From Methanobacteriota archaeon (GTDB taxonomy: Archaea; Thermoplasmatota; Poseidoniia; Poseidoniales; Thalassarchaeaceae): a stretch of DNA of 64,000 nt. This document shows, in pieces, positions 6,425-44,224 of the stretch; positions within the stretch are counted from its first letter, which is position 1; each line of letters begins with the position of its first letter. The stretch lies in the NCBI GenBank assembly GCA_002708695.1, contig PAOZ01000019.1:3065-67064 (forward strand). The letters run 5' to 3'. Under the pieces are notes generated by a model. The model was not told the origin of the DNA. It saw only the letters and a program-made list of their open reading frames with translations, and made no database searches. Both the position numbers and the translations under genes were made by a program.

Positions 6425-6433
6425 GGGATTTGA

Positions 6434-7249: not shown

Positions 7250-7280
7250 GTCGCCCAACCTTCAAGATAGTCAACCTCTA

Positions 7281-7784
7281 GTGCGTACCATGAAGGCCCC
7301 GAAGGAGTCTCAAGATGCAGTGAGCCCAGTTATTGCTACTGTTCTTCTTTTGGCAATTACCGTTCTTCTAACAAGTGGTATCTACATCATGGTTCAAGAT
7401 GCAGTTCAAGCCCCCGATAAAGGGACACCATATGGACAATTAACATCTCAATCCTTGGATAATGGATTCCAAGTAGTAAGAGTCTCTGATTTATCCAATG
7501 AATTGATGATAAATACAATCAAATTCCAAATTATATCCAATAATGGCACTATTATCGAAGGTCTAGCAAATGATGCATCCGTATACGGTGCTATCGGTTC
7601 AGATATTACCTTTCAAGACAGAGATGCTGGACTTACCCTAAATCGAGGCGACTATTTCATTATCAACGCAACAGCCATTGGTTCAGATGAAGGTGATTGG
7701 ACATTCAGATTAATCTTCATGGGAACCGGAACGCGAGGAACTGCGGATCTTGGCCAAGTAATTCTTCCAGCGATTAATCAATAA
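7281..7784 (+). CDS. archaeal type IV pilin (class III signal peptide, Pilin_N-type N-terminus)
   Basis: M(R)TMKAPKESQDA|VSPVIATVLLLAITVLLTSGIYIMV. The VSPVIATVLL(L/V)AITV segment is the hallmark archaeal pilin/archaellin N-terminal motif. Small Gly/Thr/Asn-rich mature domain. GTG at 7281 or ATG at 7290. Confidence 0.7.
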   Translation: MRTMKAPKESQDAVSPVIATVLLLAITVLLTSGIYIMVQDAVQAPDKGTPYGQLTSQSLDNGFQVVRVSDLSNELMINTIKFQIISNNGTIIEGLANDASVYGAIGSDITFQDRDAGLTLNRGDYFIINATAIGSDEGDWTFRLIFMGTGTRGTADLGQVILPAINQ

Positions 7785-7822
7785 TCGAGAAGAATCAAAC
7801 ATCAAAGCCATCAGTCAACAAT

Positions 7823-9064
7823 ATGGTCGAAGAGAGATTGGCAGGTCCTATCCAGACAATTCACCCCTCCAATTTCGAAGGAGTAAACTGGTTTTTATCG
7901 CCTTCAAAGTCACATATGATACGATGGTTAGTATTAGCATCCATGTCCAAAGATAAGACTAGGATATCTTTTGATGGGAAACCCGGAGAAGATATCCATT
8001 CTATGGCTAACTGTTTAGAAAAAATGGGAATCGTCATTAAAAGAGAAAAAGAATTCTGGGAAATTCAAGGGAATGGCCCACATGGATTTTCAATACCAAA
8101 TGAAGTTCTTGACTGTAGAAATTCAGGGACGACAATGAGATTTCTGATTCCACAATTAGCATGTTTCTCCTCTTCAGCAGTCATAGACGGAGATTGGACA
8201 TTAAGGAACAGACACCTAGAGTCATCTACCAATTCAATCGAACAATTGGGGGCTAAGATTGAATCTTCAGAAGATAATCTTGGTGCACCCTATACAATAG
8301 TTGGACCATTAAATTCGGGAATCGTAAAGTTAGATACAAGTAAATCTAGTCAATCACTTTCTGCACTTGTGTTACTTGGTCCTAGAATGTCTGGACCAAT
8401 AAAAATAGAAACTATTGGGAGAAGTGTATCGAATCGACATGCACAGTTAACTTTTGAAATCGCACAAAAAACCGGTTCGAAAACAATTTGGAACGGAGAA
8501 AGGGAGATTATAATTCAACCTTGGATTCCAATATGTCCAAAGAATGTTAAAATTCCATCAGACCTGAGCCTTGCTGCATTTGGAATTGTCGCCGCCACGG
8601 CCCATAATACCGATTTAACAATACTAAATCCACCTAATCCAGAAGATGGAATTGGGGCCGAGATTATTTTCGACATTATGGAGAAAAAACCGAAAGAACC
8701 AATGGAATTAGATTTACTAAATTGTAATGATTTGCTCCCTGCTTTATCTGCTTTCTTAGCTTTAGGACCAGGGGGAAGAATTCGGAATGCTTCACATGCC
8801 AGATTCAAGGAGTCTAATCGAATTTCAAAAACAATAGAAATGCTTTCTCATTTTGGACTTGTAGTAGAACAATGTGAAGATGGCATTCAAACTGAAGGTG
8901 GCCAAACCCCAAAAAAGCCCGAAAATGTCATCGACGTATACGGAGATCATAGGTTATTCATGACTGCAGCATGTATTGCGAGTAAAACAGGTGGAAAAAT
9001 TACTGATAAAGGAGTATGGAATATTACTGACCCATTATTTGCAGAACAAATTGGTTTCAATTAA
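7823..9064 (+). CDS. aroA: 3-phosphoshikimate 1-carboxyvinyltransferase (EPSP synthase)
   Basis: PSKSHMIRWLVLA near the N-terminus and NSGTTMRFLIP mid-protein are AroA-type signatures. Length 413 aa. Confidence 0.7.
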   Translation: MVEERLAGPIQTIHPSNFEGVNWFLSPSKSHMIRWLVLASMSKDKTRISFDGKPGEDIHSMANCLEKMGIVIKREKEFWEIQGNGPHGFSIPNEVLDCRNSGTTMRFLIPQLACFSSSAVIDGDWTLRNRHLESSTNSIEQLGAKIESSEDNLGAPYTIVGPLNSGIVKLDTSKSSQSLSALVLLGPRMSGPIKIETIGRSVSNRHAQLTFEIAQKTGSKTIWNGEREIIIQPWIPICPKNVKIPSDLSLAAFGIVAATAHNTDLTILNPPNPEDGIGAEIIFDIMEKKPKEPMELDLLNCNDLLPALSAFLALGPGGRIRNASHARFKESNRISKTIEMLSHFGLVVEQCEDGIQTEGGQTPKKPENVIDVYGDHRLFMTAACIASKTGGKITDKGVWNITDPLFAEQIGFN

Positions 9065-20465: not shown

Positions 20466-20744
20466 CTAAAGTTCACCAAGTTCCATCCACATTGCCATGT
20501 TTGCTGGATCATCCAAATCAGTAGGGTCCATTGACATCGCAGGACCATGATTTTGAGTCGGAGAGGTATAAGTTCCAACATTCGAATTGTAATTTTCAGA
20601 AGTTGAAACTCCTCTTCCTATTATCCAAAATAAGACTAGTAAAACAAATCCTAAACAAAAAAGAGTGTCCCACATGTAATCGTACCTAATTAAATCAATT
20701 GTAATCATCCCAATTAGTTCCATTCCACCATTGGGTCGAACCAT
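20466..20744 (-). CDS. small hypothetical membrane protein (92 aa)
   Basis: One hydrophobic helix (LFCLGFVLLVLFWIIG). No homology recognisable. Confidence 0.25.
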   Translation of the reverse strand: MVRPNGGMELIGMITIDLIRYDYMWDTLFCLGFVLLVLFWIIGRGVSTSENYNSNVGTYTSPTQNHGPAMSMDPTDLDDPANMAMWMELGEL

Positions 20745-22197
20745 CGCTCATGTTCCGCCATGTATGTCCTGATTCATCAGTCCACTGTTGGATGACTTCA
20801 ATTATTTTTTCTTCAATAGCAGGTGCTTCTGAATTATTAGATAAAAAAGAATCCTCAATTTGCTTTACTCTTTCGTTATTAATTCCATAAGCGGATGCTA
20901 AAGTAACAAGTAAAGAACGTTCATTTTCTGTAATAGAACCATCCTTCATTGATTTAGCATATTGTTCTAGATACTCTATCTCTTCAGGAGAATATTCACT
21001 AGGAATTAATTGTCCTGAAAAACCATCAATTAACCCAAGAATCGGTTTCCTTACAACTAAGAAACCAAGACCAATTACTACTCCACCTGCTAATCCAAAA
21101 CCAAGGACATTTTCCATTATCTCGCTTGATAAAATGAATAGAAATGCTCCAAAACCTGTGAATACAGCATTTCGAAATGTCTTCCTCAAATTCTGATCAA
21201 TCCCGAAAACCGAGTCCTTAAGCGACGCATGAACGAACATCATTGCCTCAAACGCTAGTCCAATCGGTCCAAAAGCGAAACATAAAGTGAACAAGAAATA
21301 CTTGAATCGTGACATGAACGTGCGCTCGGCATATCTCCATAGCATTTCATCTTGGAAATTAGGGACTATTCCTCCGTTTAAAATCGGCAAAATAAGTATT
21401 AGAGTGGTGAAAAACAACACGCTTCCAATCACTTTCCCTAAAAATCCGATGTAGAATGAACGTGAAACTTGGCTCTCATTCTTTACTTGCTCAGTATCCG
21501 AATTCTTCCGAATTGATGATCGGATGAACAATAAGGCAACGATAGAAACTGGTGTTTGAGAAAATACAATCAGCCATATCCCTGCCGGTTCATCTCCGAG
21601 TGTGATATCGAATGCAGCAGGACAAGTACCAATTGCAGTTAATCCACTCTGTATAGTAGGGGCAGATGAAGTACCAAGGAATTCGTAAACCACTGGATCG
21701 GCCCCTGCCATAGTACATTCAATCCATGAAAGATTATCCACAGCGAATGGAGGAAGTCCCTGAATCATCAGCCATATCGCTATTCCAAAAACAATTGGTA
21801 AGTACCAAGCATGTTTCTGCAAGCCCTCTCGATACATGAAACCCAAGCCCCTAATCTTGTAATAGACTGGAAAACAAAGATAGAGAAAAATTGCAGCAAT
21901 CTGCATAGAGAAAAAGAAATCGAATTTGATATTCCATGCTACAATCCAGAATGAATTCCACTCATGCATCCAAGGGAATACCTCCAATGCGATCCATAGA
22001 TTCTTGAATCCCTCAACAGAAAGTAATGTTGCAATAAAACGATTCTGAGGTGATTTAGAATTGGCTCTCCAAACAAGATAAGCGAGAGCGAACAACCACA
22101 GCATAACCAATAAGGTTGCAATATTGATTGTCATCCTCAAACCAAAGAGTAATTCAGAACTAAATGCCCTAGAATAGTACTCTGCAAGAGAGGTCAT
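20695..22197 (-). CDS. polytopic integral membrane protein of unknown function with soluble C-terminal domain
   Basis: About 10 hydrophobic helices. Start moved to the internal ATG at 22197 (MTSLAEY...), because the first 70 codons of the ORF-track model overlap orc1 on the opposite strand. Confidence 0.45.
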   Translation of the reverse strand: MTSLAEYYSRAFSSELLFGLRMTINIATLLVMLWLFALAYLVWRANSKSPQNRFIATLLSVEGFKNLWIALEVFPWMHEWNSFWIVAWNIKFDFFFSMQIAAIFLYLCFPVYYKIRGLGFMYREGLQKHAWYLPIVFGIAIWLMIQGLPPFAVDNLSWIECTMAGADPVVYEFLGTSSAPTIQSGLTAIGTCPAAFDITLGDEPAGIWLIVFSQTPVSIVALLFIRSSIRKNSDTEQVKNESQVSRSFYIGFLGKVIGSVLFFTTLILILPILNGGIVPNFQDEMLWRYAERTFMSRFKYFLFTLCFAFGPIGLAFEAMMFVHASLKDSVFGIDQNLRKTFRNAVFTGFGAFLFILSSEIMENVLGFGLAGGVVIGLGFLVVRKPILGLIDGFSGQLIPSEYSPEEIEYLEQYAKSMKDGSITENERSLLVTLASAYGINNERVKQIEDSFLSNNSEAPAIEEKIIEVIQQWTDESGHTWRNMSDGSTQWWNGTNWDDYN

Positions 22198-22283
22198 ATC
22201 TATCCGGAAACATAAGAAGAATATAATGGAAGTGTATAGGTACTCAATATCTCTAAGAACGTTAGAATTCAATTTCAATCCGC

Positions 22284-23465
22284 ATGGCAGGTTACCTAGA
22301 CCGGATTGGTGCAGGCAAAATCCTAGTGGATTCAGAGCCTCTTTCATTCGATTGGTTGCCAAATGAATTAGTTGGGAGAGATGATGCATTAGGCGAAATT
22401 GCATCAATGTTCATGGGTATTGAATCTCCTAATTTTAGTGGAAGAGCTATCGTAATTGGTCCAGTAGGAAGTGGGAAAACAGCAATCGTTCGACGATTTT
22501 CAGACGATTTAACGAAACATCTTGTAGATACTCGGCGTATACTTCCTGTTCACATTAATTGCAGGAATCACCCCACAACATCTCAAGTTCTACAACGTAT
22601 CGCTCAACATCTAGATCATCGACATCCAGAAAGGGGTTTCAGTCCAGGAGAAATAATTCAAAGTATACGAAGAAATTTACAAAATAGTGGCAGACATATG
22701 CTTCTTGTCTTAGATGAAGTAAGTGTACTTTTACAAAGAGAAGGTGATAATCTATTGTATCAACTTCTACGTATTGATGAAGGTAGAGAAGAAACAGGAA
22801 CACTATCCCTAATCCTAGTTAGTCAAGAACCAATGGTGCATTTGTTTGAAGCAGCGGTCAAATCAAGATTTGGCCAAAGTAATCGTATCAAACTTAATCC
22901 ATACAAAGAAGAAGGATTACGAGCAATTGTGGAACAAAGAACATCAGCAGCATGTAGGAAAGGAAGTGTACGGGATGATGCGAAATCAAGAATCGCTGGA
23001 TTCGCTGCAGAAACAGGAGATGCTAGACTGGCCATCGAACTACTGGAAAGTGCAATCAGACGTGCAGAAAAAAAGGGTGAAAACGAAGTCTCTCCTGAAC
23101 ATGTAGAACCAAGTAGCACACGTGGAGCAGGTATTGAACCTGATATGGTTGATAGCCTAAATAATCATCAAAAGATGTGCTTACTCGCACTTTGTCGCCG
23201 TTTACGGCGAGAAGAATCGGTAACAAGTGGTGACGCGGAACGTCTGTATCATGTTGTGTGCGAAGAATTTGAACAAGAATCAAGAGGGCATACTTCATTT
23301 TGGGGATATATCAAACGTCTTGAAGAAATAGGATTTATACTCGCAGAGACTAGCAATACCCCGAAAGGGCGAGGTAGAACAACACTAATTCGTGCTGCAA
23401 ATATACTCCCTGCAACAGTTGAAAAAAGACTCGAAAAGGACCTGAATCGAACTAGTATTGTGTAA
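22284..23465 (+). CDS. orc1: Orc1/Cdc6 family replication initiation protein
   Basis: N-terminal LVGRDDALGEIA, AAA+ Walker A GPVGSGKTAIV, Walker B LLVLDEV and a C-terminal winged-helix region. 393 aa. Confidence 0.85.
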   Translation: MAGYLDRIGAGKILVDSEPLSFDWLPNELVGRDDALGEIASMFMGIESPNFSGRAIVIGPVGSGKTAIVRRFSDDLTKHLVDTRRILPVHINCRNHPTTSQVLQRIAQHLDHRHPERGFSPGEIIQSIRRNLQNSGRHMLLVLDEVSVLLQREGDNLLYQLLRIDEGREETGTLSLILVSQEPMVHLFEAAVKSRFGQSNRIKLNPYKEEGLRAIVEQRTSAACRKGSVRDDAKSRIAGFAAETGDARLAIELLESAIRRAEKKGENEVSPEHVEPSSTRGAGIEPDMVDSLNNHQKMCLLALCRRLRREESVTSGDAERLYHVVCEEFEQESRGHTSFWGYIKRLEEIGFILAETSNTPKGRGRTTLIRAANILPATVEKRLEKDLNRTSIV

Positions 23466-23523: not shown

Positions 23524-24027
23524 GTGAGTACCATGGCCGACGATCGAGTGTTCAAAGCCGTCGTAAATGATTCCACTACAAAATTGGAGAGGAAGAATGC
23601 TAAGGACGAGGTCCGAACATATTCTCCATCATACCAGACCGATGTTGAAGGAAATAACTACAACGCATTACTGGGGAAAAAAATCGGGGATGAAATACCT
23701 GGAGAAAATGTCCATGAAGATATGACTGGATACACACTAAAAGTCACCGGTGGAAGTGACAAGACAGGTACACCAATGCGCAGCGACCTACATGGAGGCG
23801 GAGTAAACGCAGTCCTTGTGGGTCCAGGTGTAGGATACAAAGGGAAACGCTACGTAAGAAAGAATGGAAAGGTGTACCGTTACAAATACGGAGGAATCCG
23901 ACGACGAAGAAATCTGCGTGGAAATACAATTTCCACAGATACACGACAAATCAACCTCACAGTCGTAAAGAAGGGATCAAGACCTCTTGGCGACATCTTC
24001 GGAGCCGGCGATGAAGGCTCTGAGTGA
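23524..24027 (+). CDS. rps6e: 30S ribosomal protein S6e
   Basis: ALLGKKIGDEIPG...GYTLKVTGGSDKTGTPM is the S6e signature. GTG at 23524 or ATG at 23533. Confidence 0.85.
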   Translation: MSTMADDRVFKAVVNDSTTKLERKNAKDEVRTYSPSYQTDVEGNNYNALLGKKIGDEIPGENVHEDMTGYTLKVTGGSDKTGTPMRSDLHGGGVNAVLVGPGVGYKGKRYVRKNGKVYRYKYGGIRRRRNLRGNTISTDTRQINLTVVKKGSRPLGDIFGAGDEGSE

Positions 24028-24084: not shown

Positions 24085-25281
24085 TTGGTTGGACATGTCG
24101 ACCATGGGAAGACAACTCTAACAAGAGCACTTTCCGGAACTTGGACAGATACACACTCAGAAGAAAGAAAACGAGGTATCTCAATAAAACTAGGATATGC
24201 GGATACCGCGTTCTATTGTACAAAAGATGGGCAATATTATCCGATGGGTAAGCGTCCAGATGGAAATAAAGACAAACAAGAAGAGTTACAGAGAACTGTA
24301 TCTTTTGTTGATGCGCCTGGTCACGAGACCTTGATGGCAGTAATGATTTCAGGTGCTTCAATAATGGATGGAGCTCTTCTTCTCATTGCTGCAAACGAAC
24401 AATGCCCGCAACCTCAAACTAGAGAACACTTGGCAGCACTACAGATAGCAGGGATTGAGAATATAGTCATAGTCCAAAATAAAGTAGATTTAGTTACTAG
24501 AGAAAGAGCAATTGAATCCTACAAAGAAATAACTGAATTTGTTTCTGGAACAATTGCAGAAAAGGCACCAATTATTCCTGTATCTGCTCACCATGATGTA
24601 AATCTAGACATCTTAATCCAAGCTATTGAAGCACAAATACCGACCCCAAATAGAGGAAATGAAGATGGAATGATGCACATTGCTAGATCTTTCGATATCA
24701 ATCGTCCTGGAACTAGGCCAAATGGTCTGAAAGGAGGGATTATTGGTGGGTCCATAGTAAGAGGAAAATTCTCCAAGGGAGATGACGTAGTTATTGCACC
24801 TGGTAGAAGATCAACACAAGGTTCCAAACAAAGATGGACTCCTATAGAAACTAGAATTATGTCGATGAAAGGAGGAGGACTAGACCTTGAAGAAATGAAC
24901 GCAGGGGGCCTTTGTGGTATTTCGACACCTTTGGATCCTGCTATGACAAAAGCAGATAATCTGTCTGGACAAGTAATGGCTCGAAAAGGAGAATTACCTC
25001 CCATTTGGGAAGAAATGTCATTGGATCTAACATTATTGGAAAGAATGGTCGCAAGCGAAGAAGGAAAAGCAGACAAAGTAAAGCCACTAGCTCTAAATGA
25101 AATGTTGATGGTAAATGCAGCAACTGCTACCTCTGTAGGAGTAGTAAACAAGGTCTCCAAAGGAGTAACAACATTAAGTTTGAGACTTCCAATTTGTGCT
25201 CCAATAGGGAGTAGAGTTACCCTATCAAGAAGGATTGACTCTCGATGGCGTCTTATCGGACACGGAACAATCTCAGGGTGA
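24085..25281 (+). CDS. eif2g: translation initiation factor 2 subunit gamma (aIF2-gamma)
   Basis: G1 motif (L/M)VGHVDHGKTTLTRALSGTWTD, DAPGHE, NKVD and a zinc knuckle. Annotated start is TTG at 24085; the frame is open from 24043, so an alternative start is possible. Confidence 0.9.
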   Translation: MVGHVDHGKTTLTRALSGTWTDTHSEERKRGISIKLGYADTAFYCTKDGQYYPMGKRPDGNKDKQEELQRTVSFVDAPGHETLMAVMISGASIMDGALLLIAANEQCPQPQTREHLAALQIAGIENIVIVQNKVDLVTRERAIESYKEITEFVSGTIAEKAPIIPVSAHHDVNLDILIQAIEAQIPTPNRGNEDGMMHIARSFDINRPGTRPNGLKGGIIGGSIVRGKFSKGDDVVIAPGRRSTQGSKQRWTPIETRIMSMKGGGLDLEEMNAGGLCGISTPLDPAMTKADNLSGQVMARKGELPPIWEEMSLDLTLLERMVASEEGKADKVKPLALNEMLMVNAATATSVGVVNKVSKGVTTLSLRLPICAPIGSRVTLSRRIDSRWRLIGHGTISG

Positions 25282-25645
25282 GATTTTGCCGGACTTGTTA
25301 ATTGATGCATGTGGTTGGGTTGCAGTAGTAGATTCAGGTATGAATATCGATCTTGAAATAAAGAGAACAATTGGACCTAGTCATTGGATTATTCCTAATC
25401 AAGTTAAGGAAGAATTAGAAAAAATGGGAGAACAACACGGTGATTTATTGTTGGATTTATTATTTACTAGAGCTGAAGTAATTATATCTGAAAATAAACA
25501 TACAGATGATGCGTTGTTGTCTTTGGCGAAAAACACTGGGGCAAGAGTTCTAACAGTAGATAAAGAACTCAAACGAAGATTAATCGCACAAGGATGCGGA
25601 TATCTAGAAGTTGTGAAAGAGAGAACACTTCGTTTGATTGAATAA
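25235..25645 (+). CDS. PIN-domain protein
   Basis: VAVVDSG...LTVDKELKRRL pattern of acidic residues in a PIN-like fold. Position directly after aIF2-gamma is a conserved archaeal neighbourhood. Start uncertain: either ATG 25235 overlapping 47 nt, or TTG 25286. Confidence 0.5.
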   Translation: MTLDGVLSDTEQSQGEILPDLLIDACGWVAVVDSGMNIDLEIKRTIGPSHWIIPNQVKEELEKMGEQHGDLLLDLLFTRAEVIISENKHTDDALLSLAKNTGARVLTVDKELKRRLIAQGCGYLEVVKERTLRLIE

Positions 25646-25936
25646 TCATGGTAAAGTGAAAAGATGATCATCTCCATGTCCATCAAGCCAACCAATTCGA
25701 ACTCCTGCATCTATCCAAGCGTGAGCATAGTATATCGCTCCGAATGCTCGGACATGGTCTCCATTTTCTAAGAAATGTAGAGCATCTTTACAATAATCAT
25801 CACACATATTCAACATATCCTGTAAACGAATACCCTCAGAAGATGCAAGATCAACAATAGGGGTGGCTTTCTCTCTAGCAGCATTTGTTAGAGCAAGTGC
25901 CTCCAAAACCTTCTCTCTTGAAACTTCTATATTCAT
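25646..25936 (-). CDS. small conserved hypothetical protein (96 aa)
   Basis: 1-nt overlap with the upstream beta-propeller gene. No assignable motif. Confidence 0.35.
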   Translation of the reverse strand: MNIEVSREKVLEALALTNAAREKATPIVDLASSEGIRLQDMLNMCDDYCKDALHFLENGDHVRAFGAIYYAHAWIDAGVRIGWLDGHGDDHLFTLP

Positions 25937-26967
25937 TATTCTGAACCCTCCTGCAGTCCCAATACTCTTCTAACATCCTCTTCTCTACCTAATGCACGAT
26001 AAAGTTCCAAAGCCCTAGACCAAAGTCCTTCTTCTTCTGCTTCCTGAGCAGATTCAAACATCGAAGTTCTCTGCATCCAATCCAAACGTCTTCGCTCTTC
26101 AGTCTGTAATGATCTAAGATTTTCCATCCTCGCTCCACTAAGTGATGGAGATTCACTCCATCGGATTAATCCTTCACGAGTTGCTGAAACGATAACACCT
26201 GAACCATCTGAATGAATAATATCTACGCAATCTTCTCCAAATCCAGCATCTGTATCTTCTATCGAATGATATATTCGGCCTTCAAGGTCCATAATCCACC
26301 AACCATCTCCTGCTCTAATAGCACGGTGAGGATCTATTCCACCATCAGAAATACGGGATATCTCATCCCATCCAAACGGATTTGGTACCCCCTCAAATAA
26401 TGCTCCTGATGAATCCAACATTAGCATCCTTCCATTTGATAATCTGCTGCACCATGTCCAACGACGATTTTCTATGATTCTTTGAGCATGCTCACCATGC
26501 AATCGAACACATCGGAGTTGGCCATCGTGATCTAAACAAAGAAGATGTTCTCTATCCATCCATCCAACAATCATACGAGTGAGGCCAACGCGAAGACGAC
26601 GAACTCCTCTTCCATTTTCTCTAAAGAGGTGTAAGTGGTCTCCTCTATCTGGGGCAATCCATCCACCTCCTGTACGATATATTGCCTCTCGATAACCACC
26701 TGGAATAGAGCGACCATCACTAAGTGGGGCCCCTGTGCTACGATTCAAGACATGAATCGAAGTGCCGGTCAATAGAGCAACACTTGATCCGGATGATTCT
26801 ACTGAATAAGTATCGAAAATATAGTCGCTTCTCCAAGCAGTAGTCCCATCGGAACGTAAAGCAACCAAAGATTGTCCTGTACAAATCAACATCCCATTTG
26901 AATCAACCTTTACATCATTCACTGGTCCTTCTATCTGATGACTCCATGCAACTCGCCATTCACTCAT
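25936..26967 (-). CDS. beta-propeller (PQQ/WD-like repeat) protein with C-terminal helical/TPR-like tail
   Basis: Repeated strand/turn segments with D-G turns. C-terminus EEEGLWSRALELYRALGREEDVRRVLGL. ATGA overlap with the upstream NTPase gene. Confidence 0.4.
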   Translation of the reverse strand: MSEWRVAWSHQIEGPVNDVKVDSNGMLICTGQSLVALRSDGTTAWRSDYIFDTYSVESSGSSVALLTGTSIHVLNRSTGAPLSDGRSIPGGYREAIYRTGGGWIAPDRGDHLHLFRENGRGVRRLRVGLTRMIVGWMDREHLLCLDHDGQLRCVRLHGEHAQRIIENRRWTWCSRLSNGRMLMLDSSGALFEGVPNPFGWDEISRISDGGIDPHRAIRAGDGWWIMDLEGRIYHSIEDTDAGFGEDCVDIIHSDGSGVIVSATREGLIRWSESPSLSGARMENLRSLQTEERRRLDWMQRTSMFESAQEAEEEGLWSRALELYRALGREEDVRRVLGLQEGSE

Positions 26968-29015
26968 TCATCCACCTCCGTTAATAGCCGCGATGCAGCG
27001 GCTGTCATTCTATACCATCGAGTCCTACCTTCTTTGCGAACAGAGAGGAATCCATGTTTTCTTAAATCATTAAAAATCTGAGATAATCGTGAACGTCCAA
27101 CCTGTAATCTTGCTTGTAAAGCATCATCACTTGGAGATATATCCCTAGTTGTAGCTGCCGTTAAAACAACTACATCGGCATCTGAAACCTCTCTTAGACG
27201 ATCGGGGCGAAGAGGTGCATCTGGATCCCAACGGGGAGAACGCAATGAATTAAGTCCCCGAAGAATGTCTTCGGGCGAAGCCCTAGGAACTGATTCGGAT
27301 GAAGGGATAACAGAAGATTTCTGATTCTGAGAAGGAGGTTCGGAACCGGCTTCAACCCAAAGATCGGCTCCCTCAGAGGTTAAATCAGGAGGCCGAGAAG
27401 CCATAGGATTGGGTACTAAATTATTGGAAATCGGAGAAGAGATGTTGCTATCATCAATTGGTTCGACAAAGGCAGGAGGTTTATCTGTAGAAGAATAAGG
27501 ATCAATTATTTCAGGAGTCGGTAATGGATCAATTCCCATAATTTCGGACGTAGGGGGGTTAGGAGGGAGGTTTGCATCAATACGTGCAGTCATTTCTTTA
27601 CTCCTCGCAGATAATCCGTATATTCCTCCCCTTTTTGGAGGAGGAGGGGGTTTTACCACAATATCATTGACTGGCGATACGGAATTTGAAATTGGTAGTT
27701 CATCTTCAATAAATTCGATTAAATCCTCGGAATCAGGTAAAGATGTTATATCTGTTTCAGGATATGATGAAGACACTTCCATATCTGCTTCTCTAGATGC
27801 CTTTTCCCAAGCAGCAAAAGGCTCCAATTGCTCAGGCTCATCTTCTGTCTCAAGATATAGAGGATCTCCTTCGAAATCGTCGAATCCTCCACGTGAAGCG
27901 AAATGGACTGCTTCATCGTCCCATCCAACTTCACTATCCATACTATCGGAATCATCTAACATTAGAGAATCCACAATAGGCTCAAATTTTGAATTTGAAG
28001 CAGGCGCTGGTTCAACAATAGATTCTGTTTGAATTGTAGTTCCTTGAAGCCAAGCATCATATTCGTCCTCTACTTTATCTGTAGAAGAAGGAGAAGTTGG
28101 AGAAAATAATGGACGTGAGATTTCAGGAGCAGGGATGTGTTGAGGCGTAGCAGAAAATTCATCACGATTTGGCAATTCTGATTCATGTACTTCAGGATAA
28201 GTCGATACGTCTACTGAAAGAAATTCAGGAGGAAGTTGCCCCTCAGGATCTCGAAGATAAAGGAGATGTCGATGTAGTTGACGATTTATTGTTGATGGAT
28301 TACCTCGAGAATATGAATGAAGTTTGGTTAATTCAGTCGAATCTGTAACTATTGTCTCATTTGAGACGGTTCCCATGCGTTTATCGATAAATTGGCGGAT
28401 GTCACTCTGATTTAATGGCTCCAAATAATGAATCATGTCAAACGAGTCATGTAGAGAACGATCCCACGTGGTCATCTGGTCACTTCTTACAGCAAACACT
28501 ACCATTGCCCGCATTCTTCTTAATACAGGTATAAGTTCCTCAACTAACGACATCAATTCTTGTGATTTCGGTGATTTATAATCAAGTGCAACCAATGGAA
28601 GAGGGCCTTGAATCGAATTTAGGTGACTTGTTAACTCATTGGCTACAGCTTGAGGAGTAGGAGGAGTTTTGAAACCCCCCATCAAACCTACCAAAGCCTC
28701 ATCCAAGAATCTAGAAATGGGGTCTGATGGTGCCCAAATTGACCCTATGTGTCTCGAATCTAGAGGGGAAAGGCATTGTAATAGACTAGTTCTACCAGAA
28801 CCAGATTCTCCAACAATCAAATGGATTCCTGGTTGTCTATTCATTATATCGCTGGCAAGACAGGTGACGATTTTTTCTCTGCCAACTAGGAGATTCTTGT
28901 GTTCATGCTCAAGCGGAGACTGAGTGAAAGGGTTTCCTCGCACTAGAGGGCCACTCGGTAAGTGCTCCGCGCCTGACATCAACGGCCCATCACAATCCAA
29001 ATATAAACAATTCAC
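26964..29015 (-). CDS. Orc1/Cdc6-like or archaeal-ATPase-like P-loop protein with Walker A Lys replaced by Arg, about 350-aa acidic/Pro-rich disordered linker, and C-terminal winged HTH
   Basis: NPF..SPLEHEHKNLLVGREKIV resembles the Orc1 N-terminal box. P-loop GESGSGRTSLL has R in place of K. Linker contains PPPPKRGG and many D/E/S/P. C-terminus LSQIFNDLRKHGFLSVRKEGRTRWYRMT is wHTH-like. Confidence 0.5.
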   Translation of the reverse strand: MNCLYLDCDGPLMSGAEHLPSGPLVRGNPFTQSPLEHEHKNLLVGREKIVTCLASDIMNRQPGIHLIVGESGSGRTSLLQCLSPLDSRHIGSIWAPSDPISRFLDEALVGLMGGFKTPPTPQAVANELTSHLNSIQGPLPLVALDYKSPKSQELMSLVEELIPVLRRMRAMVVFAVRSDQMTTWDRSLHDSFDMIHYLEPLNQSDIRQFIDKRMGTVSNETIVTDSTELTKLHSYSRGNPSTINRQLHRHLLYLRDPEGQLPPEFLSVDVSTYPEVHESELPNRDEFSATPQHIPAPEISRPLFSPTSPSSTDKVEDEYDAWLQGTTIQTESIVEPAPASNSKFEPIVDSLMLDDSDSMDSEVGWDDEAVHFASRGGFDDFEGDPLYLETEDEPEQLEPFAAWEKASREADMEVSSSYPETDITSLPDSEDLIEFIEDELPISNSVSPVNDIVVKPPPPPKRGGIYGLSARSKEMTARIDANLPPNPPTSEIMGIDPLPTPEIIDPYSSTDKPPAFVEPIDDSNISSPISNNLVPNPMASRPPDLTSEGADLWVEAGSEPPSQNQKSSVIPSSESVPRASPEDILRGLNSLRSPRWDPDAPLRPDRLREVSDADVVVLTAATTRDISPSDDALQARLQVGRSRLSQIFNDLRKHGFLSVRKEGRTRWYRMTAAASRLLTEVDE

Positions 29016-29117
29016 ACAAATTCACATTTCAAAAATGGATTTTAGAGAGATTTTCTTACTTGCCGAATATACAAGTGATTGACTGATTCGCAGTAAAGAA
29101 AATATGAATAACAGACA

Positions 29118-29152
29118 TTAACGCATTTTAACGGTTAAAAATAATGCGTTAA
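29118..29152. promoter_or_regulatory. perfect inverted repeat TTAACGCATT-N15-AATGCGTTAA in the divergent intergenic region
   Basis: Read directly: 10-bp arms at 29118-29127 and 29143-29152. The 15-bp spacer contains a second near-palindrome, TTAACGGTTAA. Located about 105 bp upstream of both the hmgA ATG (29260) and the minus-strand 683-aa gene start (29015). Confidence 0.4.
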
Positions 29153-29259
29153 ACGCGTGAATTAGAGGATTATCCAAGCGCAAAACGAGGAAAATTACCA
29201 TTTTGGACAACAAGGGACATATCCAAGACATTCCACGCAATGGATAACGGGGCAGACAC

Positions 29260-30549
29260 ATGGATAGTCGAATTAGTGGATTCTACTCGCTTTCAATGGA
29301 TGAAAGGCACGAAGCAATAGCTAATGCGCTCTCTCTAAGCCCAGAACATTTTCACCCTTGGATTAACCCTCAATCGCTTGACCAAGAGACTGCAAACAGA
29401 ATGATTGAGAATGTAGTTGGACAATTATCGCTCCCCGTAGGCATTGCAATGAACTTCTTAATCGATGGAGAATCAAAATTCATCCCATTTTGTGTCGAAG
29501 AGTCAAGTATTGTTGCCGCCGCCAGTAATATCGCCAAACGGGCCTTCAAATGTGGAGGATTTACAACAAATGTTGACCCCCCTCTGATGATTGGACAATT
29601 GCAAATATTGGATGTAAAAAACATTGATAATGCGATAAAAGTGATTGAAGAGAATAAGAAAGAATTGATTGAGAAATGTAACGACATAGAATCTACTATG
29701 ATTCGCTTAGGCGGTGGTTGTAAAGACATTGAGTGCAAAATTTTGGAAACCGAATCAGAAAAAATGTTGATCGTTCACTTAATTGTAGATACTAGAGATG
29801 CAATGGGAGCGAATGCAGTGAATACAATGGCAGAAAGGGCTGCTCCTTGGCTAGAGAACCTCACAGGAGGTAGAATTTTACTTAGGATTCTTTCTAATTT
29901 AGCAACTAAAAGGCTTGCTAGGGCCTCTGTGAAACTATCGCCTGAAGCAATTTCATCAAAAGGAGAGCCTTCAGAGGGGGCTCAAATAATCAATGATATC
30001 ATCCTTGCATATGAATTCGCAGATGCTGACCCATGGAGAGCAGCAACGCATAACAAAGGAATAATGAATGCGATTTCTCCAATAGGATTAGCATGTGGAC
30101 AAGATTGGAGAGCAATAGAAGCGGGAGCCCATGCTTATGCCTCAATTACTGGAAGATATCGCTCTATGACTCGTTGGTGGATAGATGAACAAGGATGGAT
30201 AAATGGAACAATCGAGATACCACTCGCTGTAGGAACAGTAGGGGGTGCTTCGAAGATTCATCCTGTAGCCAAATTAAACCTAGAACTAACAAAAACAAAC
30301 AGTGCCCAAGAATTAGCAGGAGTGATGGCCTGTGCAGGACTCGCACAAAACCTTGGAGCAATGAGGGCTCTGGCTACCAAGGGAATTCAAGAAGGGCACA
30401 TGAGGCTACACTTACGAAATATGGTAATGTCGGCAGGAGCAACACCTGATGAAGTAGATGAGGTAGCAAACGCTGTACGATTAGACGGAGGGAACATTAC
30501 CCAATCACTCGTAGATTCAAAATTGAAGGAATTTCGCAATCAATCTTGA
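29260..30549 (+). CDS. hmgA: hydroxymethylglutaryl-CoA reductase, class II-like
   Basis: ENVVGQLSLPVGIAMNFLIDGE...VEESSIVAAASN and DAMGANAVN closely parallel class II (mvaA-type) HMGR motifs. 429 aa. Confidence 0.85.
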   Translation: MDSRISGFYSLSMDERHEAIANALSLSPEHFHPWINPQSLDQETANRMIENVVGQLSLPVGIAMNFLIDGESKFIPFCVEESSIVAAASNIAKRAFKCGGFTTNVDPPLMIGQLQILDVKNIDNAIKVIEENKKELIEKCNDIESTMIRLGGGCKDIECKILETESEKMLIVHLIVDTRDAMGANAVNTMAERAAPWLENLTGGRILLRILSNLATKRLARASVKLSPEAISSKGEPSEGAQIINDIILAYEFADADPWRAATHNKGIMNAISPIGLACGQDWRAIEAGAHAYASITGRYRSMTRWWIDEQGWINGTIEIPLAVGTVGGASKIHPVAKLNLELTKTNSAQELAGVMACAGLAQNLGAMRALATKGIQEGHMRLHLRNMVMSAGATPDEVDEVANAVRLDGGNITQSLVDSKLKEFRNQS

Positions 30550-31166
30550 CCTTCTATGTCTTCTTCGGTCCCATCAGAGTCAGGAATTACGTCCATATCA
30601 CCTACTTGAGGATCCAACTCACGGATAGAATCAACCAATGCCTGAGAAGAAATTCCATTTTCTTGAGCCTGTTGCCTAAACCATTCTTTGACTTTCTTTG
30701 GCTCAGTATGTGGGCATTGGAAACGTTCGGCAAAATATCGAGTAGTTTGCAAACGTCGTGAATTCCCTTTTCTACGCCTATCAACTAAACCTAATCGCGC
30801 TAAAGAACGTACGTAATCATATGCAATCGGACCCATCATGCTAACTAAATCACTCTGCATCATAGGTTGATGATAAGCAATCAAGGCAGCAGCGCGTTGT
30901 AATCTCTCAGGTATATCTCCCCTTAATTCAGAAGGCAAATAGGGAGAAAGACGAGGGTCTACTTCCATAGACCATCTGCCACCAACTTCCACTATCTGAA
31001 GAGCATTTCCTCTTCTACGCCTATATTGACCTCTTAGAGAATCAAGAGCTTGGGTTACTTCTTCTTCACTAATGGATGATTGAGATGCTAATTCTGAGCA
31101 ACTTAAAGACCTACCTGAGCAAAATAGTAAGGCTTCTACAATTGCATCAACTCCTGGTTCACTCAT
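30540..31166 (-). CDS. scpB: segregation and condensation protein B
   Basis: N-terminus IVEALLFCSGRSLSCSELA is the ScpB winged-helix signature. 4-nt overlap with scpA. Confidence 0.8.
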   Translation of the reverse strand: MSEPGVDAIVEALLFCSGRSLSCSELASQSSISEEEVTQALDSLRGQYRRRRGNALQIVEVGGRWSMEVDPRLSPYLPSELRGDIPERLQRAAALIAYHQPMMQSDLVSMMGPIAYDYVRSLARLGLVDRRRKGNSRRLQTTRYFAERFQCPHTEPKKVKEWFRQQAQENGISSQALVDSIRELDPQVGDMDVIPDSDGTEEDIEGQD

Positions 31167-32173
31167 ACTTCCACCTCCACTAACGAAATTCCACGTTCTT
31201 CAGCAATCTTGTTTAGAGCATCCTCATATGAATTGGAAGATGGCCACCTATCTTTGATGAAAATCCTGCCCTCTGATGCCTTTCCCATTTGCCAAATTTC
31301 AGCGAACCCCCTGTGGGTAAGGAAAAGAGATGCAACAAAACCGGAAATTTCACCTTCAATACTTGCTTCATTATCAGTAGCTCCTTCTTCGATGGCTAAT
31401 GCCATCAAATGCTCTCTAATTGACTGTAATTCAACTGGTGCACCATTCCTACCTAAATCTCTCATTGCAGACCAGCAACGTCGAATATCGTCCTCAAGAT
31501 TCTCCCTATGTATCCTTGAAGAAACATTAGCCATTGCCTCTGCAACTTCAGCTTGATGACGAACTCTTGCTTGTTCACGAAGTTGCCTTTCTCTAGCATC
31601 CTCATGGGCACCTTTCAATGAAAATAGCATTTCAGTGAGAGTAATGGGCCTTGATTCGGTAGTTCTACGAATGCGACCTTCGAAGAGATTTGGCAAAGCA
31701 TCTTTTGCTTGCCCAGTGAGCACATTTACCGAAAAAGAATATTCATCATCACTCAGTTCACTTTCCCAACCTATATCCATAGTCCAATCATCTTCAAGTA
31801 ATTCTTCTTCCCAACGTTCATGACGTTCAATGAGAGTAAATGTTTGAGCATGTAAAATTGACCATGCCATTCTAATCAGTCTTCCACAACTAGGCAAATC
31901 GATATTTTCTGCAGTCTTTATCCTCTCACTGAATAAATCAATAAAAGTAGAAAGATCGACGTCCCATGGATCAAGAGATTCTGTTTGGAAAAGTTGGAAA
32001 ACAAGTGCAATTGACCTATCAATTGGATCAACCAACATCTGGTGCTCTCCATTTTCCATTTCTGCGATTTCCACTAATCGGTCAATGAACGGAGAAACTG
32101 ATTCTTCTTCTTCTTCTCCGAGCAAGCGATTTACAATATCAGAACGAAGGTGGTGTGAATCTAAAATATTCAT
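31163..32173 (-). CDS. scpA: segregation and condensation protein A (kleisin)
   Basis: FEGPLDLL-like N-terminal segment (QLFQTESLDPWDVDLSTFIDLF). Position between smc and scpB. Confidence 0.8.
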   Translation of the reverse strand: MNILDSHHLRSDIVNRLLGEEEEESVSPFIDRLVEIAEMENGEHQMLVDPIDRSIALVFQLFQTESLDPWDVDLSTFIDLFSERIKTAENIDLPSCGRLIRMAWSILHAQTFTLIERHERWEEELLEDDWTMDIGWESELSDDEYSFSVNVLTGQAKDALPNLFEGRIRRTTESRPITLTEMLFSLKGAHEDARERQLREQARVRHQAEVAEAMANVSSRIHRENLEDDIRRCWSAMRDLGRNGAPVELQSIREHLMALAIEEGATDNEASIEGEISGFVASLFLTHRGFAEIWQMGKASEGRIFIKDRWPSSNSYEDALNKIAEERGISLVEVEV

Positions 32174-42841: not shown

Positions 42842-44224
42842 TCATTCCTTCTTTTCATTAGGATGGTACTTAGAAATAAGTTCATCATCTAATCTTTCAA
42901 GATATTTGGTGTCAATATTTGCCAACAATTCCCAACAAAGATTGAGTGTGCCATCAATAGTTCGATCTTCATCACGACCCTGCCTAACGAATTTATCCTC
43001 AAAGATATCTGAAAACTTGAGATATTGTAAATCTCTCTCATTCAATGCATCTTCACCTACAATCGCAACAAGTCCACGTAGTTCACGACCTTGAGCATAT
43101 GCTGCATACATCTGGTCACTGATTTTCTTATGATCATCACGTGTTGTTTCTTCACCAATACAACCACCCATCAATCTCGACAAGGATGGAAGAACGTTAA
43201 TCGGCGGATAAATTCCAGCTTGATGCAATTCACGAGAAATCACAATTTGTCCTTCAGTAATATATCCAGAAAGATCAGGAATTGGATGAGTAATATCATC
43301 ACCAGGCATTGTCAAGATTGGGAACTGAGTGATGCTTCCCTTCTTCCCTTTTACAATTCCTGCACGTTCGTAAAGCATTGCTAAGTCAGTATACATGTAT
43401 CCAGGGTAACCACGACGACCAGGTACTTCTTCACGAGCTGCACCAATCTGACGCAGAGAATCACAATAGTTGGTCATGTCCGTGTAGATAACCAAAACGT
43501 GATAGTCGTGTTCAAACGCAAGATATTCTGCCGCAGTTAAAGCAAGTCTAGGAGTAATCAATCGTTCAACTGCAGGATCGTCTGCCAGATTAACGAATAA
43601 AACCGCATTTTCTAAAGCGCCAGTTCGTTCCAAATCAGCACGGAAGAAATTGTATTCCTCAGCAGTAATTCCCATTGCACAGAACACTACAATAAATTCT
43701 TCATCACTGTCCTTCAATTTTGCTTGACGAGCAATCTGCAAAGCGATATCGTTGTGAGGAAGTCCAGATGCACTAAAGATTGGAAGTTTCTGTCCTCTAA
43801 CCAAAGTAGTACAACAATCAATTGCACTAACTCCTGTCTGAATAAAATCATGAGGAGATTGGCGCGAATAAGGGTTAATTGCAGCACCAATAATGTCTGC
43901 TTTCTCATCTGCAACAATGTCAGGACCACCGTCTCTTGGTCTACCGGCTCCATCTAAAATTCGGCCAACTAAACCTTTGCTAACTGGTAATTTGAATACA
44001 TCTCCAAGGAACTTTACTCCTGCTCTACGATCAATACCTTCTGTGCCTTCAAACACCTGAACAACAACCATATCATCGGATGTATCTAACACTTGGCCGT
44101 TCTTTGTAGAACCATCAGAAAGTCGAATTGTTACAATCTCACCATATGCTACCGGTTCTGTCTTCTCTAGGAACACCAAAGGTCCCTTAATGTCAGTAAT
44201 TGTCTTGTATTCTTTACTTGTCAT
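42842..44224 (-). CDS. atpB: A-type ATP synthase subunit B
   Basis: Non-catalytic subunit family sequence. 460 aa. Confidence 0.93.

What the first reader, a model, noticed from the sequence alone, without database searches (positions are those of the whole stretch)
25646..29015. Operon of an Orc1-like P-loop protein with dead Walker A and 350-aa disordered linker, a beta-propeller protein, and a small protein
The 683-aa protein begins with an Orc1/Cdc6-like N-terminal box and an AAA-type P-loop whose Lys is replaced by Arg (GESGSGRT). It then runs through about 350 residues of acidic, Ser/Pro-rich low-complexity sequence (including PPPPKRGG) and ends in a wHTH. Such long disordered linkers are rare in archaeal proteins. 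The protein is ATGA-coupled to a PQQ/WD-like beta-propeller protein and then to a 96-aa protein. The window also has a canonical orc1 at 22284, so this could be a diverged non-initiator Orc paralog used as a regulator or scaffold.
Basis: partly seen in the sequence, partly recalled or inferred. Interest (0 to 1): 0.55.

Follow-up and report, generated by a model that had tools for sequence, protein, structure and literature searches.

The report
Dead AAA+–disordered linker–wHTH operon, marine archaea
All examined Marine Group II archaea carry a DNA-binding protein built from a disabled ATPase domain, a very long acidic disordered linker and a winged-helix domain; it is always encoded with the universal but uncharacterised archaeal protein DUF357, behind a conserved array of short DNA boxes, and nobody has described it.

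Summary
Three overlapping genes lie on the minus strand: A (26964-28979, 671 aa from the likely ATG), B (25936-26967) and C (25646-25936).

- **Protein A, N-terminus:** an AAA+ base-plus-lid fold. Walker A is GxxGxGR[ST] in most of the family. The Walker B glutamate is missing in every member.
- **Protein A, linker:** 331 aa, net charge -50, under purifying selection, with only two family-wide short motifs.
- **Protein A, C-terminus:** an ArsR/HlyU-type winged helix, the best conserved part of the protein.
- **Protein B:** a beta-propeller with a helical tail.
- **Protein C:** DUF357.

The family was found only in Poseidoniales. A is followed by DUF357 in 78 of 78 informative species loci. B is present in only some lineages.

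"Orc1-like" is only generically right. The nearest relatives are compact AAA_16/ATPase_2-plus-wHTH proteins with intact motifs, not Orc1/Cdc6.

New here: A's promoter carries a conserved array of CGT[TG]AA[TC] boxes (CGTTAACG palindromes) next to the TATA box.

Best reading: a non-hydrolysing, DNA-binding regulator or scaffold that probably binds its own promoter. This looks like an undescribed variant of a known kind and is moderately interesting.

The parts
26964..28979 (-). Gene A, 671 aa from ATG 28979 (the ORF is open up to GTG 29015): degenerate AAA+, acidic disordered linker, ArsR-type wHTH
28248..28979 (-). A residues 1-244: invariant N-terminal RGNPF peptide followed by an AAA+ base and lid
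   Evidence: AF2 pLDDT 78; Foldseek AAA+ hits; AAA_16 in 10 of 10 members, AAA_22 in 8 of 10, nSTAND1 in 7 of 10
28788..28811 (-). Walker A GESGSGRT, with Arg in place of Lys
   Evidence: R in most family representatives, K in 7
28578..28595 (-). Walker B LVALDY: the Asp is kept, the catalytic Glu is replaced by Tyr
   Evidence: never D or E after the Asp in any family member; outgroups have DD or DE
27255..28247 (-). A residues 245-575: acidic, S/P/T-rich disordered linker, net charge -50
27597..27635 (-). Linker motif 1, KRGGIYGLSARSK (family pattern G-[FM]-x-G-L-x-x-R-[SN]-[RK])
27351..27377 (-). Linker motif 2, SEGADLWVE (family pattern [DE]-G-x-x-L-W-[VT])
26967..27254 (-). A residues 576-671: ArsR/HlyU-type winged helix-turn-helix with invariant SPSD...VGR.RLSQ
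   Evidence: NF033788 E=6.6e-5; profile vs PDB HlyU E=5.5e-6; 63% mean column identity
25936..26967 (-). Gene B, 343 aa: beta-propeller (residues 1-272) plus a 70-aa helical tail; ATGA overlap with A
   Evidence: AF2 pLDDT 85; BamB/WD40 folds at E about 1e-11; 14 homologues, those with source names from Poseidoniales
25646..25936 (-). Gene C, 96 aa: DUF357 (PF04010, arCOG01224)
   Evidence: 66.2 bits against a cut-off of 29.4; PDB 2OO2 and 2PMR; PMC6393860
29001..29007 (-). TATA-like box TTTATAT, centred 25 nt upstream of ATG 28979 (suggests a leaderless or short-leader mRNA)
29009..29026 (-). Two tandem TGTGAATT boxes, 10-nt period, next to the TATA box (proximal operator candidate)
29117..29162 (.). 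Distal box cluster: two reverse and two forward CGT[TG]AA[TA] boxes, including the perfect 10-nt inverted repeat TTAACGCATT / AATGCGTTAA (29118-29127 and 29143-29152)

Best explanation
This is a vertically inherited housekeeping operon, found here only in Poseidoniales. Its first product (A) is a DNA-binding regulator or scaffold, not a motor and not a replication initiator.

A descends from compact NBD-lid-wHTH proteins of the AAA_16/ATPase_2 (STAND/Orc-like) kind. It differs from them in two ways. It has lost the catalytic Walker B Glu, and usually the Walker A Lys. It has also gained a 250-700 aa acidic disordered insert between the lid and the wHTH.

Shown:
- the domain anatomy;
- the degenerate ATPase motifs;
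- constraint on the linker;
- invariant coupling of A to DUF357;
- facultative presence of the propeller B;
- a conserved array of CGT[TG]AA[TC] boxes in A's promoter.

Inferred:
- The ArsR-type wHTH, probably as a dimer, binds the palindromic boxes and so autoregulates the operon, since the proximal boxes touch the TATA box.
- The dead AAA+ module serves as a nucleotide-binding or oligomerisation switch that gives cooperative occupancy of the multi-box array.
- The acidic linker, through its two conserved motifs, tethers partners (DUF357 and, where present, the propeller) or masks the DNA-binding domain.
For: - AAA+ fold.
- Walker A R and Walker B D-[YFHLVA...] across the family, while outgroups keep GKT and D[DE].
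- ArsR/HlyU-type wHTH with an invariant recognition helix R[SP]RLSQ.
- Outgroups of 370-440 aa match both end domains without a linker.
- Linker net charge -50, dN/dS 0.22-0.27, two family-wide motifs.
- A is directly followed by DUF357 in 78 of 78 informative loci. B lies between them in 10 of the 80 species loci and in the four further lineages examined.
- Overlapping stop and start codons.
- The boxes are 36-fold enriched at -75..-25 from A's ATG. They sit at fixed positions (-200, -187, -176, -158, -147, -70, -48, -38). They form the only large cluster in each of the 10 loci examined; one locus has a second, 3-box cluster.
- In L004/L005 a peroxiredoxin gene separates HMGR from A, and the boxes stay with A.
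- No defence-system match.
Against: - No experiment or co-variation links the wHTH to the boxes. Both the recognition helix and the box core are invariant, so co-variation cannot be tested.
- Another transcription factor could bind the boxes.
- Nucleotide binding by the R-type P-loop is untested.
- Order-wide synteny may partly reflect phylogenetic inertia rather than functional linkage.
- The linker motifs persist in lineages that lack B, so they are not simply propeller-binding sites.
Confidence: 0.45

Rival explanations
1. Split STAND-like signalling switch. A is the NTPase module with a DNA-binding effector. B, the beta-propeller, is the detached sensor domain, as WD40 sensors are in NACHT/NB-ARC proteins. 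Ligand sensing by B controls oligomerisation of A and its output at the box array.
For: - nSTAND1 hit above Pfam's cut-off (30.9 against 27.1 bits; found in 7 of 10 members) and AAA_16 in 10 of 10.
- CED-4 is among the fold matches.
- A and B are translationally coupled.
- The outgroup P0182 sits beside NACHT-WD40 and other conflict-system genes.
Against: - B is absent from 68 of the 78 informative species loci, while A is unchanged there.
- The nSTAND1 match covers only 46 of 379 profile positions.
- The Walker B acidic residue used by STAND switches is missing.
- The locus has a fixed housekeeping position and no PADLOC match.
Confidence: 0.15
2. Diverged initiator-like protein. A binds the box array as an ORB- or iteron-like origin element, or an origin-proximal control element, working with or modulating the canonical Orc1 encoded 3.5 kb away.
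For: - NBD-lid-winged-helix plan, with Cdc6 and Orc1 among the best fold matches. The model has two helices between beta2 and beta3, which is ISM-like.
- Phased repeats flank an AT-rich spacer of 70-90 nt directly upstream of the gene.
- orc1's own upstream intergenic region is about 90-150 nt and showed no ORB-like repeats.
- The orc1 ... A ... smc-scpAB neighbourhood is constant.
Against: - No sequence-level Orc1/Cdc6 membership.
- The nearest relatives are AAA_16/ATPase_2 proteins.
- The boxes are only 7-8 bp and the proximal pair touches the TATA box, as an operator would.
- GC skew in the window follows gene orientation and gives no origin signal.
- The ATPase site is degenerate.
Confidence: 0.12
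3. Chromosome-organisation adaptor. A binds a centromere-like box cluster next to smc-scpA-scpB and uses its long acidic linker to recruit condensin or other partners, by analogy with ParB-parS.
For: A always lies about 1.5-2 kb from scpB, with only HMG-CoA reductase between them and, in one lineage, a peroxiredoxin gene as well. It has a multi-site DNA array and a multivalent disordered linker.
Against: This rests on position alone. There is no similarity to ParB, Seg or Mks proteins. The synteny could simply be inherited.
Confidence: 0.07
4. Artefact: a frameshift or misassembly joined an ATPase gene and a wHTH gene across non-coding sequence.
For: None beyond the unusual length and composition of the linker.
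Against: A single uninterrupted ORF recurs in 116 matching stretches from species-representative genomes and in many independent assemblies. Linker dN/dS is 0.22-0.27. The linker contains conserved motifs.
Confidence: 0.01

Closest known systems
Compact archaeal AAA_16 / ATPase_2 (PF13191 / PF01637) / KAP NTPases with a C-terminal wHTH (e.g. P0182 from Bathyarchaeia, P0197, P0224)
   Same: These are the nearest sequence relatives. The N-terminal profile hits them at E 1e-12 to 1e-8 and the C-terminal wHTH profile at E 1e-11 to 1e-6. They share the LVGR/FVNR lead-in and the GNPR sensor-2-like motif.
   Different: The relatives are 370-440 aa with no linker. They have canonical GKT and D[DE]. 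Their locations are scattered and sometimes resemble defence islands. A has a 250-700 aa acidic insert, dead catalytic motifs and a fixed housekeeping locus.
Archaeal Orc1/Cdc6 initiators (e.g. PDB 2QBY, 1W5T, 2V1U; the window's own orc1 at 22284-23465)
   Same: AAA+ base and lid followed by a winged-helix DNA-binding domain. LVGRE lead-in. Fold matches at E about 1e-6 and TM 0.51-0.55. Repeats lie upstream of the gene.
   Different: No Cdc6_lid, Cdc6_C or TIGR02928 match. hhalign gives only a 44-residue local match. The wHTH is ArsR-type. The ATPase motifs are degenerate. The disordered linker lies between the lid and the winged helix.
ArsR/SmtB-family regulators (HlyU 3JTH/4K2E, BigR 3PQJ)
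   Same: The C-terminal 70 residues align over the full wHTH, including the recognition helix. Palindromic sites in the gene's own promoter fit the usual autoregulatory logic of the family.
   Different: Scores are below the NCBIfam cut-off (22.6 against 55 bits). No metal or thiol sensing residues were examined. The wHTH is attached to a 575-residue N-terminal region.
STAND NTPases with HTH effectors and beta-propeller sensors (MalT/AfsR-like, NACHT-WD40; Pfam nSTAND1)
   Same: P-loop NTPase, DNA-binding effector and propeller together in one functional unit. nSTAND1 hit above cut-off.
   Different: The propeller is a separate, facultative gene. The match covers only the P-loop region. No ARC/WHD module follows the lid. 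The Walker B acidic residue is absent.
BamB / PQQ-like and WD40 beta-propellers
   Same: The fold of B residues 1-272 (Foldseek E 4e-11, TM about 0.55).
   Different: 10-16% sequence identity to the fold matches and no Pfam match. B is a cytoplasmic archaeal protein with a 70-aa helical tail. The family is seen only in Poseidoniales.
DUF357 / arCOG01224 (PDB 2OO2 AF_1782, 2PMR)
   Same: Gene C is a clear member.
   Different: Across archaea DUF357 is reported as linked to DUF555 and a TagD-type cytidylyltransferase (PMC6393860). In Poseidoniales it is instead always downstream of gene A.

Membership tests
AAA+ superfamily | Alpha-beta-alpha P-loop core followed by a helical lid | tested here: met
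   The AF2 model (pLDDT 78, pTM 0.76) has five strands and a three-helix lid. 568 PDB matches at E<=1e-3; the listed top matches are AAA+ or related STAND ATPases.
AAA+ superfamily (active ATPase) | Walker A GxxxxGK[ST] and Walker B hhhhDE | tested here: not met
   GESGSGRT and LVALDY in the window. R in most representatives. No acidic residue after the Walker B Asp in any family member.
Orc1/Cdc6 | Matches to the family models (TIGR02928, Cdc6_lid PF22703, Cdc6_C PF09079) | tested here: not met
   None at E<=1 for protein A and none at E<=0.01 in 10 family members. The window's true Orc1 scores 1.3e-65, 4e-15 and 1.5e-15.
Orc1/Cdc6 | Profile similarity over the whole AAA+ module | tested here: not met
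   hhalign against the window's Orc1 aligns 44 columns only, probability 82%.
Orc1/Cdc6 (initiator clade) | Initiator-specific motif: an extra helix between beta2 and beta3 | tested here: inconclusive
   The model shows two helices (99-112 and 121-134) between strands 88-91 and 141-145. pLDDT there is 64-84, and no structural superposition was inspected.
STAND NTPases (nSTAND1 PF20703) | Pfam match over the NOD module, including the post-lid winged helix | tested here: inconclusive
   30.9 bits against a cut-off of 27.1, but only residues 36-81 match profile positions 9-52 of 379. 7 of 10 members hit.
ArsR/SmtB wHTH | Sequence match across helix-turn-helix and wing | tested here: met
   NF033788 E=6.6e-5, below the curated cut-off. 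Family profile against PDB: HlyU 5.5e-6, BigR 1.2e-4, ArsR 2.4e-4.
ArsR/SmtB wHTH | Dimeric binding to a palindromic operator in its own promoter | not testable with these tools
   Palindromes (CGTTAACG; TTAACGCATT inverted repeat) are present upstream. Binding was not tested.
Beta-propeller (BamB/PQQ/WD40-like) | Propeller fold | tested here: met
   AF2 pLDDT 85, with 26 strands in residues 5-272. BamB at E 4e-11. No sequence-family membership.
DUF357 (PF04010 / arCOG01224) | Pfam match above the gathering score | tested here: met
   66.2 bits against 29.4, E=2.7e-18. PDB 2OO2 E=4.5e-7.
Known anti-phage defence systems (PADLOC) | Match of any of the three proteins to a defence model | tested here: not met
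   Only a 32-residue P-loop match to PtuA at E=1.4e-3.

The most novel reading that the evidence does not exclude
The box array between HMG-CoA reductase and gene A is not a simple operator. It is a chromosomal landmark, either an origin-associated element or a centromere-like or condensin-loading element. On this reading A is a lineage-specific, ATPase-dead, initiator-derived adaptor. Its multivalent acidic disordered linker would assemble DUF357, the propeller and possibly SMC-ScpAB or Orc1 at that site. That would give a first functional handle on the near-universal archaeal protein DUF357 and on chromosome biology in uncultured MGII archaea.
Probability: 0.1. Interest if true: 0.85.

Novelty: new variant of a known kind. 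Interest (0 to 1): 0.55.

Why it matters
- **The organisms (own knowledge):** Poseidoniales (Marine Group II) are among the most abundant planktonic archaea and remain uncultured, so gene function has to be inferred from sequence.
- **An order-wide marker:** this operon is present in every Poseidoniales locus examined.
- **A lead on DUF357:** the operon provides a new, invariant genomic partner for DUF357. That protein is found in 463 of 524 archaeal genomes and is listed as a top-priority unknown (PMC6393860).
- **A rare architecture:** a 250-700 aa constrained acidic disordered region is unusual for an archaeal protein. Here it is inserted precisely between the lid and the winged helix of an NBD-lid-WH module. 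Orc/Cdc6 and STAND switches share that plan (own knowledge).
- **A testable cis element:** the conserved box array gives a concrete DNA target for the wHTH.
- **A natural example of pseudo-enzyme evolution:** the Walker B Glu is lost in every member, while the Walker A position varies between K and R among branches.

Tried and rejected
- **PDB sequence search, N-terminal profile.** Only P-loop-local hits (midasin, ABC, Clp). Uninformative beyond 'P-loop'.
- **hhalign against the window's Orc1.** Local match only, so specific Orc paralogy was rejected.
- **B-correlated linker motif.** I looked for a motif present only in B-containing lineages. The 'VGWD...PLYLE' island is shared by the window clade, P0015 and P0019, but not by the distant B-containing lineages P0154 and P0327. 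Dropped.
- **Metagenome scan with CGTTAACGNNNCGTTAACG.** Only 12 of 120 were A loci. The pattern is too short for that database, so nothing can be said about a regulon.
- **Relaxed tandem-box search in the window.** The only other near-match, 43227-43243, lies inside the V-ATPase B coding sequence and is a chance hit.
- **GC skew for origin mapping.** It follows gene orientation. Uninformative.
- **orc1 upstream repeats.** Nothing ORB-like found.
- **DUF357 homologue search.** The hits that carry source names are Poseidoniales or unclassified archaeal MAGs, so no cross-phylum context. The literature was used instead.
- **PADLOC.** No defence assignment.
- **Sigma-70 promoter and terminator scan.** Not applicable to archaea and no enrichment.
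- **Literature searches for this protein family.** Nothing found.


Full report
**1. Observation**

The three minus-strand ORFs are present as described.
- A's stop overlaps B's start as ATGA.
- B's stop overlaps C's start as TAATG.
- GESGSGRT and PPPPPKRGG are in the sequence.

One correction concerns the start codon.
- The GTG at 29015 is probably not the start.
- A TTTATAT box at 29001-29007 is centred 25 nt upstream of the ATG at 28979.
- The identical database protein is 671 aa, and distant homologues start at the aligned Met.
- The apparently conserved extension 'MNCLYL' is therefore the translated TATA box.

The surrounding genes are as follows (ScpA, ScpB, HMGR, S6e and eIF2-gamma are named from the precomputed Pfam hits on the syntenic related loci):

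| Feature | Coordinates | Strand |
|---|---|---|
| orc1 (a true Orc1/Cdc6) | 22284-23465 | + |
| S6e | 23524-24027 | + |
| eIF2-gamma | 24085-25281 | + |
| PIN_9 | 25235-25645 | + |
| C, B, A | 25646-28979 | - |
| HMG-CoA reductase | 29260-30549 | + |
| scpB | 30540-31166 | - |
| scpA | 31163-32173 | - |

**2. Protein A, N-terminal domain**

- Pfam gives nSTAND1 (30.9 bits, residues 36-81 only) and AAA_16 below its cut-off.
- Across ten family members AAA_16 hits 10, AAA_22 hits 8 and nSTAND1 hits 7. No ORC/Cdc6 model hits any of them.
- An AF2 model built from a family alignment (pLDDT 78) shows a five-stranded P-loop core and a three-helix lid.
- Foldseek against the PDB returns Cdc6, a TRIP13-like ATPase, MuB, RFC small subunit, archaeal Orc1/Cdc6, TnsC, RuvB and CED-4. 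All sit at E about 1e-6 to 1e-5 and query-normalised TM 0.41-0.58. This is a generic initiator, loader, clamp-loader or STAND-type AAA+ fold.
- Profile-profile comparison with the window's own Orc1 aligns only 44 columns around LVGR...GSG[KR]T.

**3. Family and origin of A**

- The word-indexed search found 86 clusters, all 600-1055 aa.
- The exhaustive profile search of 1.84 billion representatives found about 65 family representatives at E<1e-23. The full-length ones carry the C-terminal wHTH.
- Every source name refers to Poseidoniales, Poseidonia, Thalassarchaeaceae or MGII.
- The next hits, at E 1e-12 to 1e-8, are 370-440 aa proteins with AAA_16, ATPase_2, KAP or NACHT-type Pfam hits.
- Many of those proteins also match A's C-terminal wHTH profile at E 1e-11 to 1e-6, directly after the ATPase and with no linker.
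- One of them, from Bathyarchaeia, sits among NACHT-WD40 and other conflict-system genes.
- A is therefore best described as a derivative of a compact NBD-lid-wHTH family, with a disordered region inserted between the lid and the wHTH.

**4. ATPase motifs**

- Walker A is GxxGxGR[ST] in most representatives.
- Seven representatives keep Lys: P0110, P0112, P0113, P0148, P0154, P0155 and P0157.
- Walker B keeps the Asp, but the next residue is Y, F, H, L, V, I, A, S, C or M, and never D or E, in all family members.
- The outgroups have DD or DE at that position.
- The sensor-2-like GNPR motif is kept in many branches. It is GNPS or GNPT in the window's clade.
- No invariant Arg lies between beta4 and beta5.
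- The module is therefore catalytically degenerate. At most it binds nucleotide.

**5. Linker**

- Residues 245-575 are 20.5% D+E and 32% S/P/T, with net charge -50. They fall on the disordered side of the charge-hydropathy boundary.
- Linker length varies between family members. Full-length members range from about 500 to 1055 aa overall.
- Across 50 diverse members only two islands are conserved:
  - G-[FM]-x-G-L-x-x-R-[SN]-[RK]; in the window KRGGIYGLSARSK.
  - [DE]-G-x-x-L-W-[VT]; in the window SEGADLWVE.
- Linker dN/dS is 0.22-0.27, against 0.07-0.18 for the two folded domains. The linker is constrained coding sequence, not an artefact.

**6. C-terminal domain**

- This is the most conserved part of the protein, with 63% mean column identity and an invariant SPSD...QARL.VGR.RLSQ.
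- It matches ArsR/SmtB-type regulators. NF033788 gives 6.6e-5. The profile against the PDB gives HlyU 5.5e-6, BigR 1.2e-4 and ArsR 2.4e-4.

**7. Proteins B and C**

- B has only 14 homologues, and those with source names are from Poseidoniales.
- Its AF2 model (pLDDT 85) is an all-beta domain (residues 5-272) plus a 70-residue helical tail.
- Foldseek gives BamB and WD40 propellers at E about 1e-11 to 1e-9.
- C is DUF357 (66.2 bits; PDB 2OO2 and 2PMR).
- DUF357 is arCOG01224. It is present in 463 of 524 archaeal genomes, is reported as linked to DUF555 and a TagD-type cytidylyltransferase, and is listed as a top-priority unknown (PMC6393860).
- It also belongs to an archaeal single-copy marker set (PMC12680538).

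**8. Conservation of the unit**

- The order SMC-ScpA-ScpB | HMGR | A-(B)-DUF357 | PIN-eIF2gamma-S6e-Orc1 is the same in:
  - Thalassarchaeaceae-type loci;
  - a lineage with a 1055-aa A;
  - a 2.06-Mb contig whose A has Lys in Walker A;
  - Poseidonia sp..
- Eighty loci from GTDB species-representative genomes were analysed. DUF357 follows A, or A-B, in 78 of 78 informative cases.
- B is present in 10 of those 80 loci. It is also present in the four lineages above that were reached through other proteins.
- B occurs in both Poseidoniaceae-type and Thalassarchaeaceae-type genomes. It is therefore probably ancestral and later lost in many MGIIb lineages. This is an inference.

**9. A conserved cis element (new here)**

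- The HMGR-A intergenic region carries an array of CGT[TG]AA[TC] boxes.
- In 57 dereplicated upstream regions, forward boxes sit at about -200, -158, -147, -70, -48 and -38 from A's ATG.
- Reverse or palindromic (CGTTAACG) boxes sit at about -187 and -176.
- Density at -75..-25 is 31 per kb, against 0.87 per kb in the loci overall.
- In each of ten loci examined this is the only cluster with four or more boxes. One locus, L049, has a second cluster of 3 boxes.
- In the window the array appears as:
  - ATTCACG, TTTAACG, CCGTTAAA and GCGTTAAT at 29117-29162;
  - within that, a perfect 10-nt inverted repeat at 29118-29127 and 29143-29152;
  - two tandem TGTGAATT boxes at 29009-29026 touching the TATA box.
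- The strict motif is not enriched in the window as a whole: 7 found against 5.4 expected.
- In L004/L005 a peroxiredoxin gene lies between HMGR and A, and the boxes stay with A.

**10. Interpretation**

The features point to a non-hydrolysing DNA-binding regulator or scaffold that occupies its own promoter:
- an ArsR-type wHTH with an invariant recognition helix;
- palindromic, helically phased boxes touching the TATA box of its own gene;
- a dead AAA+ module;
- a multivalent acidic linker;
- translational coupling to DUF357, and sometimes to a propeller.

The binding itself, the nucleotide state and the partners of the linker motifs are inferred, not shown. I put this reading at 0.45.

Rivals:
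- a split STAND-like switch with B as sensor (0.15);
- an initiator-like or origin-associated role (0.12);
- a centromere-like or condensin-adaptor role (0.07);
- an assembly artefact (0.01, refuted).

A defence role is unlikely. There is no PADLOC match, the locus is fixed, and inheritance looks vertical.

**11. Novelty**

- No paper in the searchable library describes this family.
- Each module belongs to a known kind.
- What looks new is the combination, its invariant pairing with DUF357, its occurrence only in Poseidoniales among the hits, the universal loss of the Walker B Glu, the constrained long disordered insert, and the conserved promoter array.
- I file it as a new variant of a known kind.

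Noticed in passing
window 28980-29015: The GTG-initiated 12-codon extension of ORF A (MNCLYLDCDGPL) is conserved as amino acids in several database entries. At the DNA level it contains the TATA box (TTTATAT) and a TGTGAATT box. Gene callers that extend to the upstream start are translating the promoter.
   Followed up: yes
window 22197-22283 (upstream of orc1): The intergenic region upstream of the canonical orc1 is short, about 90-150 nt depending on the neighbour's start. It showed no ORB-like repeats, so the replication origin is not obviously next to orc1 here.
   Followed up: partly
window 31163-32173 (-), and the equivalent 326-409 aa genes in L001, L004, L006, L009, L010: The gene between smc and scpB, at the position of ScpA, has no Pfam hit on record in any related locus. 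This suggests a very divergent kleisin in Poseidoniales.
   Followed up: no
window 20695-22407 (-): A multi-pass membrane protein ORF ends in a soluble C-terminal domain. Its listed TTG start overlaps orc1, so its true start is probably an internal Met. Not characterised.
   Followed up: no
L049 9639-9756: A second, smaller cluster of three CGT[TG]AA[TC] boxes lies downstream of the operon in one Thalassarchaeaceae-type locus. It could be a second binding site or chance.
   Followed up: no
L011 (Bathyarchaeia contig, 6001-8861): The nearest compact relative of protein A (P0182) is followed by a second AAA_16/DUF4062 protein. The pair sits among NACHT-WD40, SLFN/AlbA_2, CTD7/CTD8 and MC2 genes, which resembles a conflict-system island.
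   Followed up: partly
L004 7166-7678; L001 10341-11228; L009 13166-13570: Lineage-specific insertions occur around the conserved unit: a peroxiredoxin between HMGR and A, an MscS channel after DUF357, and a MarR-like gene after DUF357. The A-DUF357 pairing is untouched in each case.
   Followed up: partly
protein A residues 11-24 (671-aa numbering), window 28908-28949: An invariant peptide (P..VRGNPF...P[LI]E) precedes the AAA+ core in a low-confidence region of the model. From memory it resembles the NPYxGL...FFGRE lead-in of STAND NTPases. It may be a third short linear motif.
   Followed up: no
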